Positions 39,001 through 42,000 of a DNA stretch of 64,000 nt are shown in pieces. Source of the DNA: Escherichia coli (GTDB lineage: Bacteria; Pseudomonadota; Gammaproteobacteria; Enterobacterales; Enterobacteriaceae); the NCBI RefSeq assembly GCF_001677475.2, contig NZ_CP015229.1; one strand, written 5' to 3'. The number at the start of each line of letters is the position of its first letter. Positions within the stretch are counted from its first letter, which is position 1. The position numbers were made by a program.

Positions 39001-42000
39001 AAAAGAGATCCGCACGCTTGAAGGTGAAGCGAAAGGCGGAAAACTTTCTCATGTTCAGCAGGCTTATGCGAAATCCGGCGCAGTGCAGTGCGGGTTTTGT
39101 ACGCCTGGCCTGATTATGGCTACCACGGCAATGCTGGCGAAACCACGCGAGAAGCCATTAACCATTACGGAAATTCGTCGCGGACTGGCGGGAAATCTTT
39201 GTCGCTGCACGGGGTATCAGATGATTGTAAATACAGTTCTGGATTGCGAGAAAACGAAGTAAAAGGATATCCGGCCTGAATTCAGGCCGGATTCACTGAG
39301 GTTATGTGTTTAACAACTCATATTTCTTAATCTTGCGATAGAGCGTAGCAATGCCGATGCCCAGTTCATCAGCAACTTGCTTCTTGCTGTTATGACGTGA
39401 AAGCGCCTCGCGGATCATTTGCTTTTCCATCTCCTCCAGCGCCGTGCCGCCCGCATCATCGAGTGACAGGTGTGCCTCAGTGACCTCTGTTACATCACTT
39501 TGCTCCGTTGTGCCATTATTCAGCAGATTTGGCGGCAATAGCGTGCTGTCGATAACTTCACCTGAAGGAACAACGTTAACCAGATATTCCATCAAATTGC
39601 TTAACTCGCGCAGGTTTCCGGGCCAACGATGCTTACGCAATATTTCGACGACATCGGGAGCAATGCCAGGATAAACCGATCCCAGACGACGGGTATGCAG
39701 ATGTAAAAAGTAATGCACCAGTAGTTCAATATCTTCCTGACGTTCACGCAGCGGTGGCAGAGTTATCGGGATAACATTAAGTCGGTAGAAGAGATCTTCG
39801 CGGAATTTACCTTCGGCAATGAACTGGGCCAAATTCTGGTTAGTTGCAGAAATGATGCGAATGTCGACTTGTATTGGGCTACTGGCACCAATCGGCAGAA
39901 TTTCACGTGCCTCAATAGCGCGCAGTAATTTAGCCTGCAACATTAATGGCATATCACCTATTTCATCGAGAAACAGCGTGCCCGTATTCGCCGCCTGAAT
40001 CAACCCTGTTTTACCGTTGGCAGAAGCGCCAGTAAATGCGCCTTTAACATAACCGAACAGTTCGCTCTCCAGAAGCTGCTCCGGAATCGCGGCACAGTTG
40101 ATAGCAATAAAGGGTTTATTCCGTCTTCCGCTCAACTTATGGATTGCACGGGCGACGACTTCTTTACCCGTGCCGCTTTCGCCAACCACCATAACGCTGG
40201 ATGGGCTGGGTGCAATACGGCTAATGAGTCGTTTTAATTGCCGCATAACACGGCACTCGCCAACCAATTGTTCAATATGCGGTTCATCAGGTGCATTTGC
40301 TACAGAAAAACTGGTATGCGATTGGTGAAACGCCATTAAAAATAATTGTCGGCCCTGAATGTTATGCAATTGACCAATGATTAATTCACTTTTATCGTCC
40401 CACGAAACAATATGCTGCATATGTCCATGGGTAAAATTACTCTCAAATGTTAATGGTCTGAAACGGATAGGTTTCCCAATAATATTATTTTGTACAACAC
40501 CAAGTGTTTTTAAGGCAGTCTGATTAACAAACTGAACCCGACTTTCATCATCAACAACTAATACGCCCTGATCCATATTATCGATCATGGTCGCGAATAT
40601 TTTACTGATGTTATCTCCTGGCCCCTGATCCTCCAGAAGTTTCGAAACAAAAATGGTGGATATATGGCGAACGTAATCAGAAAATTCGCGTAAATTATCA
40701 CTGATATGTTCTTGTTGCTCGTGGGTAACGGCAATCAAACTTATCACCCCAACACAACGATCCTGTAAAATGACAGGCGTACCCAGAAATGCTTTTTCAC
40801 GGCAATTTTCTTTACTATCGCAACCTTCGCAAAGGGGATCGAAGCGAGATTGTGTCACAACTTTTTCAGTTTTCGTTTCCAGGACGTGGCGGAGCAGGCG
40901 TGAGTTGCCGCTCAACTGGCGACCAAGAAACTTCCCATACGCGCCAGTTCCGGCGACGCGACACAAGTTTTCATCAACGATCTCAACCTCAAGCTGCAAA
41001 ACGCTGGCAAGCATTCTGGCAAAACGCTGAATTGTCGGTTGAATTTGCATCAATACTGACTGCGTAGTAGCAAGCTCCATAGCTTTACCTTCCAGACTTA
41101 CTTAAAAGTCGATCATTGAAGACGTTGATGGTTCACAGATCATGATGATATTAACTCAGGCGAAATTGGCTTTGATAAAAACATAAGATTTTTATCATTT
41201 TCTAATGAAATTATGGAAGAGATATCACATTTCTATATCAATATGAGAATTACGGCGGTGAGTTTATCAAACTGACGAGGGATAGCCTGCCCCTTTATCT
41301 TATTTCTGATACTTAGCAGCAAATAAATAACGCAATAAAAAAATGCCAAACGTTTTCGTATTTTACAAACAACCCGAAGCTGGCATCAATTTGTGATCAA
41401 CCCCACACATTATCCGTCAAATTAGTCTTTTGCAGCCGCTTGGATAATTCTGGCACAGTTATTGTTAGTCCCAGGTATAGCTGTGAAAACACCAATCACT
41501 TTGGCAAGTCACAGTGAAATAAACCTCTTTGCCTGTCATTCCACTACCGGGACTTTATGATGAAAACTGTTAATGAGCTGATTAAGGATATCAATTCGCT
41601 GACCTCTCACCTTCACGAGAAAGATTTTTTGTTAACGTGGGAACAGACGCCAGATGAACTGAAACAAGTACTGGACGTTGCCGCAGCATTAAAAGCACTG
41701 CGTGCTGAAAACATCTCAACCAAAGTCTTTAATAGTGGATTAGGTATTTCCGTATTCCGCGACAACTCCACCCGTACCCGCTTCTCTTATGCTTCCGCGC
41801 TTAACCTGCTCGGCCTTGCACAGCAAGATCTCGACGAAGGCAAATCACAAATCGCTCACGGCGAAACCGTGCGTGAAACCGCCAATATGATCTCCTTCTG
41901 CGCCGATGCCATCGGTATTCGTGACGATATGTATCTGGGCGCAGGCAACGCTTATATGCGTGAAGTTGGCGCTGCACTTGATGACGGCTACAAGCAGGGC

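What the first reader, a model, noticed from the sequence alone, without database searches (positions are those of the whole stretch)
39268..39293. 20-bp perfect palindrome between xdhC and ygeV
CCGGCCTGAATTCAGGCCGG is a perfect inverted repeat between two convergent genes and lacks flanking T-tracts. It could be a bidirectional terminator, an RNase III or REP-like processing element, or a protein-binding site.
Basis: seen in the sequence. Interest (0 to 1): 0.25.

Follow-up and report, generated by a model that had tools for sequence, protein, structure and literature searches.

The report
Shared 3'-end hairpin of xdhC and ygeV
The palindrome is an ordinary RNA hairpin in the short gap between two E. 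coli genes that face each other; published 3'-end maps already show that both genes' transcripts end at it.

Summary
The perfect palindrome is 24 bp, not 20 (ATCCGGCCTGAA|TTCAGGCCGGAT, window 39269-39292). It fills most of the 39-nt gap between the stop codons of xdhC (+) and ygeV (-). It is not a chance feature: 0.05 such repeats are expected per window. It is single-copy, and it is exact in about 99% of 5,276 complete E. coli genomes.

In other Enterobacteriaceae the same gap holds a strong hairpin, often of unrelated sequence. Stems are kept by compensatory changes while loops and flanks drift.

Term-seq data of Dar & Sorek, re-called by TRS, place the ygeV 3' end 8 nt past the stem, at the last U of AUCCUUUU. 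They place the xdhC 3' end 3 nt past the stem.

Bicyclomycin data show Rho-dependent termination about 160 nt further downstream on the ygeV strand. Several sister Escherichia lineages have the same palindrome followed by T6-7 on the xdhC side, which E. coli lacks.

Verdict: this is a shared, bidirectional 3'-end-defining hairpin, part weak terminator and part exonuclease block. It is not a REP element, an RNase III site or an operator. It is a known kind of element and of low interest.

The parts
39269..39292 (.). 24-bp perfect palindrome. On either strand the RNA folds into a hairpin with a 10-bp core stem (up to 12 bp counting outer pairs) and the loop AAUU. The G+C-rich core is CCGGCCUG/CAGGCCGG.
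   Evidence: Searches give the sequence and arms. One search gives about -21 kcal/mol on both strands, with z-scores of -4.8 and -5.6 for the 39-nt spacer. One search shows 98.2% of stem cells paired across 11 related sequences.
39261..39268 (-). 3' tail AUCCUUUU of the ygeV transcript. The dominant Term-seq 3' end is at window 39261 (K-12 3003967), the last U, 8 nt after the stem. The tail overlaps the xdhC stop codon on the other strand.
   Evidence: TRS re-analysis of the Dar & Sorek Term-seq data gives a - strand peak at 3003965-3003975, dominant 3003967, signal 0.97, p = 6e-67, 1e-38 and 2e-49, class 'Primary ygeV'.
39293..39295 (+). 3' tail UCA of the xdhC (xdhABC) transcript. The dominant Term-seq 3' end is at window 39295 (K-12 3004001), 3 nt after the stem.
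   Evidence: + strand peak at 3003998-3004005, dominant 3004001, signal 0.64, significant in 2 of 3 replicates, class 'Primary xdhC'.
38783..39262 (+). xdhC coding sequence, the last gene of xdhABC. Its stop codon lies 6 nt before the palindrome.
39302..41080 (-). ygeV coding sequence (sigma-54-dependent regulator). Its stop codon lies 9 nt before the palindrome on the - strand.
39169..39268 (-). C-rich, G-poor stretch of the - strand RNA immediately downstream of the hairpin (antisense to the 3' end of xdhC). It resembles a Rho-utilisation (rut) region.
   Evidence: C 29% and G 14% (C/G 2.1) in the first 80 nt, and C/G 1.9 in nt 21-100.
39106..39106 (-). Peak position of a published Rho-termination region (K-12 3003812), about 160 nt downstream of the hairpin on the ygeV strand.
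   Evidence: Adams et al. 2021, Supplementary file 2. Without bicyclomycin the read counts are 55 upstream and 18 downstream; with it they are 167 and 167. Rho score 3.06, p = 8e-5.

Best explanation
The palindrome encodes one hairpin that defines the 3' ends of both convergent transcription units, xdhABC on the + strand and ygeV on the - strand.

Shown:
- The RNA of either strand folds into a stable G+C-rich hairpin.
- Steady-state 3' ends of both transcripts lie just past its base, so the two mRNAs overlap by about 35 nt.
- The stem is under purifying and compensatory selection.

Inferred mechanism in E. coli: neither side has a proximal U-tract, so the hairpin alone is a weak releasing signal.
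- On the ygeV side some polymerases probably stop at the distal UUUU. Those that read through meet a C-rich, G-poor tract and are terminated by Rho within about 160 nt.
- On the xdhC side, release is probably also downstream or non-canonical.
- In both cases 3'-to-5' exonucleases (PNPase, RNase II) would trim back to the hairpin, which blocks them and stabilises the mRNA.
- When both units are active, the hairpin may also act as the pause point of a collision-type bidirectional terminator.
For: Structure:
- Folding gives about -21 kcal/mol on both strands, z = -4.8 and -5.6.

3' ends:
- Term-seq data of Dar & Sorek (E. coli BW25113, LB, exponential phase), re-called by TRS, give a ygeV end at 3003967. 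This is 8 nt after the stem, with signal 0.97 and all three replicates significant.
- The same data give an xdhC end at 3004001, 3 nt after the stem, significant in two of three replicates.

Rho:
- A Rho-termination region peaks at 3003812 on the - strand. The threefold drop in coverage disappears with bicyclomycin.
- The first 80 nt downstream on the - strand have C/G 2.1.
- Dar & Sorek report that Rho-dependent transcripts end just after stable stem-loops with low U content. They also report C-over-G enrichment downstream and PNPase/RNase II trimming.

Conservation:
- The palindrome is exact in about 99% of 5,276 E. coli genomes. The variants sampled fall in the loop or the flanks.
- Across 11 Escherichia, Citrobacter and Klebsiella indica sequences, 98.2% of stem cells pair and 2 pairs change on both sides. 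Three of the four loop positions vary.
- In all 19 other xdhC-ygeV spacers examined (30-88 nt) the minimum-energy fold contains a hairpin, at -11 to -38 kcal/mol. In Pluralibacter, Trabulsiella, Atlantibacter, Yokenella, Buttiauxella and some Citrobacter the sequence is unrelated.
- Between Trabulsiella strains there is a C-G to G-C swap.

Relatives:
- E. whittamii, Escherichia sp. E1V33, strain SCPM-O-B-8794 and 'Citrobacter sp.' MGH106 have the palindrome followed by T6-7 on the xdhC side. MGH106 has one G-U wobble in the stem. This is a canonical intrinsic terminator.
Against: - The ygeV 3' end lies exactly where intrinsic termination would place it, 8 nt after the stem at the end of a U run. 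Direct release there may therefore dominate, and trimming may play no part.
- The bicyclomycin evidence is coarse: 800-nt windows and low counts. Bicyclomycin also raises antisense transcription in general, so equal coverage need not mean readthrough of ygeV mRNA.
- The curated Term-seq table of Adams et al. lists no 3' end at this site.
- The xdhC call rests on few reads, because xdhABC is poorly expressed in LB.
- No exonuclease-mutant or in vitro termination data for this site were available to me.
- Downstream C/G bias on the + strand is weak, 1.0-1.65.
Confidence: 0.85

Rival explanations
1. It is a self-sufficient, canonical bidirectional intrinsic terminator. RNA polymerase is released at the hairpin on both strands, with no need for Rho, exonucleases or collisions.
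For: - A G+C-rich 10-12-bp stem with a 4-nt loop.
- The - strand is flagged as terminator-like, with 5 U in 8 nt.
- The ygeV 3' end lies 8 nt after the stem at the end of UUUU, with 97% of local Term-seq signal.
- Sister lineages have the same hairpin with T6-7 on the + side.
Against: - The + strand tail UCACUGAGG has no U-tract, and its 3' end is only 3 nt from the stem.
- Tail scores are weak on both strands, -1.1 and -1.2.
- The + side tail varies freely among E. coli strains (TTCACTG, TTCTCAG, TTCGCTG, TTTACTG), so no U-tract is being selected.
- Bicyclomycin abolishes the coverage drop on the - strand.
Confidence: 0.25
2. It is a collision-driven bidirectional terminator of the kind described by Ju et al. 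2019 and Wang et al. The hairpin pauses polymerases coming from each side, and head-on plus trailing collisions release them.
For: - It is a single hairpin between convergent genes, and the two transcripts overlap across it.
- That class is described as not resembling intrinsic terminators and as requiring a stem-loop.
Against: - The sharp ygeV 3' end was measured in LB, where xdhABC is barely transcribed, so collisions cannot be frequent.
- That class is described as Rho-independent, whereas a Rho-dependent region is reported on this strand.
- I could not obtain the SEnd-seq site list.
Confidence: 0.15
3. It is a REP/BIME-type repeat or a remnant of one. It would act as REP elements do, through gyrase, IHF or RAYT binding and mRNA stabilisation.
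For: - It shares the 9-mer ATCCGGCCT with the 3' end of the Y-type REP consensus as I recall it.
- REP elements between convergent genes also act as 3'-UTR terminators and stabilisers.
Against: - There is one locus per genome in 5,276 genomes; the 'two places' reported are the two strands of the same palindrome.
- There is no match to a 17-mer from the 3' end of the Y-type REP consensus (CGCCTTATCCGGCCTAC) within 3 mismatches. The palindrome region itself has 7 mismatches to it, by my own comparison.
- A 15-mer from a second REP type (GCCTGATGCGACGCT) gave only four scattered 2-3-mismatch hits, none at the palindrome.
- The arm order is the reverse of a REP stem.
- There is no GTAG or CTAC adjacent.
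- No repeat feature is annotated there in NC_000913.3.
Confidence: 0.02
4. It is a DNA operator: a dimeric protein binds the 24-bp palindrome.
For: - Perfect dyad symmetry, including the central AATT.
- Near-invariance within E. coli.
Against: - It lies at the 3' ends of both genes, not in a promoter.
- The central bases change (AATG, AGTG, AACT) while the stem is kept.
- In other genera with the same gene pair the sequence is entirely replaced by other hairpins.
- One stem variant is a G-U wobble, tolerated only at the RNA level.
- The RpoN/NtrC gSELEX tables list no site in this spacer.
Confidence: 0.03
5. It is an RNase III processing site. This could be within the hairpin, or in the 35-bp duplex that the two overlapping 3' ends could form with each other.
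For: The two mapped transcripts are complementary over about 35 nt. By established knowledge, that is long enough for RNase III.
Against: - The intramolecular stem is only 10-12 bp, shorter than typical RNase III substrates of about two helical turns (established knowledge).
- The mapped 3' ends lie outside the stem rather than staggered within it.
- There are no data on rnc dependence.
Confidence: 0.05

Closest known systems
Protective 3' stem-loops of Rho-dependent transcripts (Dar & Sorek 2018, PMC6061677)
   Same: A stable stem-loop sits immediately upstream of a precise steady-state 3' end. It has low U content, C exceeds G downstream on the - strand, and there is a bicyclomycin-sensitive region downstream. 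It is not a REP element.
   Different: The ygeV end falls at the end of a short U run, at the distance typical of intrinsic release, so this side may be a hybrid. Dependence on exonucleases has not been shown for this site.
Overlapping bidirectional terminators between convergent genes (Ju et al. 2019; Wang et al., bioRxiv 10.1101/2022.10.23.513370)
   Same: One hairpin in a short convergent spacer serves both strands, and the two transcripts overlap across it. It does not look like a canonical intrinsic terminator.
   Different: That class is described as Rho-independent and driven by collisions between highly expressed convergent genes. Here one partner (xdhABC) is nearly silent under the conditions measured, and Rho dependence is reported on the ygeV strand.
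Canonical intrinsic (Rho-independent) terminator
   Same: A G+C-rich stem of 10-12 bp with a 4-nt loop. The identical hairpin is followed by T6-7 in E. whittamii, Escherichia sp. E1V33 and SCPM-O-B-8794; 'Citrobacter sp.' MGH106 has it with one G-U wobble.
   Different: E. coli proper has no U-tract on the xdhC side and only a distal U4 on the ygeV side.
REP (repetitive extragenic palindromic) elements
   Same: An extragenic palindrome in a 3' UTR between convergent genes. It probably has the same kind of terminator and stabiliser effect.
   Different: It is single-copy, has no REP consensus and no GTAG motif, and is a perfect rather than imperfect palindrome.

Membership tests
Intrinsic terminator | Stable G+C-rich stem-loop in the nascent RNA | tested here: met
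   About -21 kcal/mol on both strands, z = -4.8 and -5.6.
Intrinsic terminator | U-rich tract immediately 3' of the stem | tested here: not met
   The + tail is UCACUGAGG and the - tail is AUCCUUUUAC, with tail scores of -1.1 and -1.2. Relatives with T6-7 score -3.9 to -4.7. The loose scan passes the - strand only.
Intrinsic terminator | RNA 3' end about 7-9 nt after the stem | tested here: inconclusive
   Met for ygeV (8 nt) but not for xdhC (3 nt), from published Term-seq.
Intrinsic terminator | Independence from Rho | tested here: inconclusive
   A published bicyclomycin-sensitive region peaks about 160 nt downstream on the - strand. Resolution is coarse, and there are no data for the + strand.
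Protective stem-loop of a Rho-dependent transcript | Precise steady-state 3' end immediately after a stable stem-loop that lacks a U-tract | tested here: met
   the class is defined.
Protective stem-loop of a Rho-dependent transcript | C-over-G bias (rut-like) downstream, and bicyclomycin-sensitive readthrough | tested here: met
   On the - strand, C/G is 2.1 in the first 80 nt, and Rho score is 3.06 with p = 8e-5. On the + strand the bias is weak (1.0-1.65) and there are no bicyclomycin data.
Protective stem-loop of a Rho-dependent transcript | 3' extension in pnp or rnb mutants | not testable with these tools
   This needs the per-site exonuclease-mutant RNA-seq data. The supplementary files are not held.
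Bidirectional terminator between convergent genes | A single hairpin between convergent genes, with the 3' ends of both transcripts overlapping across it | tested here: met
   The 3' ends are at 39261 (-) and 39295 (+), giving a 35-nt overlap.
Bidirectional terminator between convergent genes | Termination depends on RNA polymerase collisions and not on Rho | not testable with these tools
   This requires promoter deletions or single-molecule assays. The Rho signal on the - strand argues against strict membership.
REP element | Dispersed in many copies per genome | tested here: not met
   There is one locus per genome in 5,276 genomes and one in the window.
REP element | Match to the REP consensus, with a flanking GTAG/CTAC | tested here: not met
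   No match to the Y-type REP 3'-end 17-mer within 3 mismatches. Four scattered hits to a 15-mer of a second REP type, none at the palindrome. No GTAG or CTAC next to the palindrome. The consensus sequences were recalled from memory.
RNase III substrate | About 20 bp or more of duplex RNA, with staggered cleavage within the stem | tested here: not met
   The stem is 10-12 bp, and the mapped ends lie outside it. The length criterion comes from established knowledge.
Transcription-factor operator | Sequence, not just pairing, conserved at orthologous sites | tested here: not met
   Unrelated hairpin sequences occupy the site in Trabulsiella, Atlantibacter, Pluralibacter, Yokenella, Buttiauxella and C. 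freundii. The centre of the palindrome varies.
Rfam RNA families | Match at the gathering score | tested here: not met
   The best hit is isrC at 17.5 bits, against a gathering score of 39 and with E = 1.2.

The most novel reading that the evidence does not exclude
E. coli proper, unlike several sister Escherichia lineages, has lost the T6-7 tract on the xdhC side of an otherwise unchanged hairpin. This could have turned a tight terminator into a leaky one. Induced xdhABC transcription would then run antisense into ygeV, which encodes the sigma-54 regulator associated with the same purine-catabolism gene set. That would give lineage-specific feedback by transcriptional interference, or by RNase III cleavage of the 35-bp sense-antisense overlap.
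Probability: 0.08. Interest if true: 0.4.

Novelty: already known. Interest (0 to 1): 0.08.

Why it matters
It matters little beyond annotation. The result gives the xdhABC and ygeV transcription units defined 3' boundaries and a 35-nt overlap, and it removes a candidate oddity from the scan.

It is a clear example of one hairpin serving two convergent genes. It also shows how a U-tract can be lost (E. coli) or kept (E. whittamii and others) around an unchanged stem. That makes it a convenient natural pair for comparing intrinsic release with Rho-plus-trimming 3'-end formation.

Tried and rejected
- Rfam scan of 1 kb around the site: only sub-threshold noise.
- REP hypothesis: rejected on copy number and consensus.
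- K-12 annotation: no repeat or regulatory feature in the spacer.
- RpoN/NtrC gSELEX paper that mentions xdhC and ygeV: its sites are at xdhB/xdhC and ygeV/ygeW, not in this spacer.
- iModulon/Reg-Seq preprint: nothing about this spacer.
- Curated Term-seq table of Adams et al.: no 3' end at 30039xx or 30040xx.
- TERMITe supplements: no entry.
- Supplements of Dar & Sorek and of the 3'-UTR-valves paper: not held.
- The SEnd-seq paper of Ju et al. 2019: not held, so I could not check whether the site is on their list of bidirectional terminators.
- A 20-nt partial match on small plasmids (for example L088) has E of about 1 and an unrelated context near IS1. I treated it as chance.
- I first assumed the window was MG1655. 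It is another E. coli strain, 94-98% identical over the aligned parts, though the 101 nt around the palindrome are identical to MG1655.

Full report
**Observation**

The window is E. coli. It is not MG1655 itself: it is 94-98% identical to NC_000913.3 over the aligned parts. The 101 nt around the finding are identical to MG1655. Locally, window position + 2,964,706 gives the NC_000913.3 coordinate.

xdhC ends with TAA at 39260-39262 on the + strand, and ygeV ends at 39302-39304 on the - strand. The 39-nt spacer holds a perfect palindrome. It is 24 bp, not 20: ATCCGGCCTGAA|TTCAGGCCGGAT at 39269-39292, with no spacer between the arms.

Perfect inverted repeats with arms of at least 12 nt are expected 0.05 times per shuffled window. 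Two are observed. The other one is also a mapped terminator (see the last section).

**Structure and flanks**

Either strand folds into a 10-12-bp G+C-rich hairpin with a 4-nt loop. The energy is about -21 kcal/mol, with z-scores of -4.8 and -5.6 for the spacer alone.

- The + strand tail is UCACUGAGG, with no U-tract.
- The - strand tail is AUCCUUUUAC. This passes a loose terminator scan.
- A proximity-weighted tail score is weak on both sides, -1.1 and -1.2.

**Copies and population**

The palindrome occurs once in the window. It occurs at one locus per genome in 5,276 of 5,426 complete E. coli genomes. The 'two places' reported per genome are the two strands of the same palindrome.

A 30-nt query that spans the palindrome matches without mismatch in 5,247 records and with one mismatch in 44. 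The variants I sampled change the loop or the flanks, never the stem:

- loop AATT to AACT in strain R32_14_1F;
- + side tail TTCACTG, TTCTCAG, TTCGCTG or TTTACTG;
- a 1-nt deletion 5' of the stem in ST131.

No Rfam family matches. No REP consensus matches at the palindrome, and K-12 annotates no repeat there.

**Comparative evidence**

A scan of one genome per species with XdhC returned orthologous loci. Wherever xdhC and a ygeV-like gene converge, the 30-88-nt spacer contains a hairpin (-11 to -38 kcal/mol). The z-scores are mostly -3 to -8, and weaker in three Citrobacter loci.

In the other Escherichia lineages, two Citrobacter and Klebsiella indica, the same core is kept. Across 11 sequences:

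- 98.2% of stem cells pair;
- the two outer pairs change on both sides in K. indica;
- one G-U wobble occurs;
- three of the four loop positions vary, and the flanks diverge.

In Pluralibacter, Trabulsiella, Atlantibacter, Yokenella, Buttiauxella and C. freundii the hairpin has an unrelated sequence at the same position. Two Trabulsiella strains differ by a C-G to G-C swap.

This is the signature of a conserved RNA structure, not of a protein-binding sequence.

E. whittamii, Escherichia sp. E1V33, strain SCPM-O-B-8794 and 'Citrobacter sp.' MGH106 carry the palindrome followed by T6-7 on the xdhC side. MGH106 has one G-U wobble in the stem. The tail scores there are -3.9 to -4.7, which makes a textbook intrinsic terminator. 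E. coli proper lacks this tract. By parsimony it was lost, which is an inference.

**Published transcript ends**

The TRS paper (PMC10687069) re-called the Term-seq data of Dar & Sorek. Those data come from E. coli BW25113 in LB at exponential phase, with coordinates converted to NC_000913.3. [quoted passage not shown]

| Strand | Peak | Dominant position | Window position | Signal | Replicate p-values | Class |
|---|---|---|---|---|---|---|
| - | 3003965-3003975 | 3003967 | 39261 | 0.97 | 6e-67, 1e-38, 2e-49 | Primary ygeV |
| + | 3003998-3004005 | 3004001 | 39295 | 0.64 | significant in 2 of 3 | Primary xdhC |

The palindrome is at 3003975-3003998. The ygeV RNA therefore ends ...GGAUAUCCUUUU, 8 nt past the stem. 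The xdhC RNA ends ...GGAUUCA, 3 nt past the stem. The two RNAs overlap by 35 nt.

Separately, Adams et al. (PMC7815308, Supplementary file 2) list a Rho-termination region on the - strand, peaking at 3003812, about 160 nt downstream. Read counts are 55 upstream and 18 downstream without bicyclomycin, and 167 and 167 with it. The first 80 nt of - strand RNA after the hairpin are C-rich and G-poor, with C/G 2.1.

Their curated Term-seq table has no end at this site.

**Mechanism**

Shown: the hairpin, its selection, and the 3' ends on both flanks.

Inferred: how the polymerase is released. The features fit the class described by Dar & Sorek:

- a stable stem-loop without a U-tract at the steady-state 3' end of a Rho-dependent transcript;
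- rut-like sequence just downstream;
- PNPase and RNase II trimming back to the stem.

The ygeV side may be a hybrid, with some direct release at the U4 run. When both units are active, the hairpin could also serve as the pause site of a collision-type bidirectional terminator. That cannot explain the sharp ygeV end in LB, where xdhABC is almost silent.

**Rejected readings**

- REP element: the palindrome is single-copy and has no consensus match.
- RNase III hairpin: the stem is too short and the ends lie outside it.
- Operator: the position is wrong, the centre is variable, and the sequence is replaced in other genera.

**Verdict**

This is an ordinary shared 3'-end hairpin of a known kind, and its transcript ends are already in published tables. 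Interest is low.

The only mildly interesting point is the lineage-specific loss of the xdhC-side U-tract. It might allow antisense readthrough into ygeV. That is speculative, and I put its probability at about 0.08.

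Noticed in passing
window 6449-6483: This is the only other perfect inverted repeat in the window with arms of at least 12 nt: 16-nt A+T-rich arms and a 3-nt loop (GAATGGTTCAAAATTG CTA CAATTTTGAACCATTC), followed by CAGTTTTC. 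It maps just after yqeG in K-12. The Dar & Sorek/TRS Term-seq table has a 'Primary yqeG' 3' end at 2987127, which corresponds to window position 6489, in the T run. It is therefore the yqeG intrinsic terminator.
   Followed up: partly
window about 15966-32911: About 17 kb of the window has no counterpart in the corresponding MG1655 stretch. MG1655 carries IS2H and the ygeK/L/N/O/P pseudogenes there, the degraded ETT2 region. The window's strain probably carries a fuller version of that island.
   Followed up: no
window 55614-55638: A perfect 11-bp-stem hairpin, ACCCTCTTCCC GTA GGGAAGAGGGT, with no T-tract. It lies in the short gap between ssnA and ygfM, inside an operon, so it may be an internal mRNA-stabilising or attenuating hairpin.
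   Followed up: no
window 7564-7591: A hairpin, ATACGGGCAT CTATTGAA ATGCCCGTAT, followed by TTTAC. It maps just after yqeH in K-12 coordinates and looks like a terminator.
   Followed up: no
window 11044-11066: An A+T-rich perfect palindrome, CAGAAATTTAT T ATAAATTTCTG, in the ETT2-related region. Its function is unknown.
   Followed up: no
L004 (E. coli ECOD1, NZ_CM129827.1) 1629-2733: In this strain an IS1A copy sits at the 3' end of xdhC, and the next annotated gene is uacT. The palindrome, ygeV and the genes in between are therefore deleted. About 150 of the 5,426 genomes lack the site.
   Followed up: no
L012 and L013 (Citrobacter MAG and C. amalonaticus) 2981-3068: Here the xdhC-ygeV spacer is 87-88 nt. 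It holds a longer, imperfect, nested palindrome (CAGGTTGCCTCCGGG...GCGTTCACGC...GCAACC) that looks like a different, possibly repeated, element inserted at the same site.
   Followed up: no
L088 (4.1-kb E. coli plasmid NZ_JCAPUO010000003.1) 601-620: A 20-nt identical match, GGCCTGAATTCAGGCCGGAT, next to an IS1 pseudogene. There are 32 such 'places' on plasmids in all. With E of about 1 it is probably chance.
   Followed up: partly
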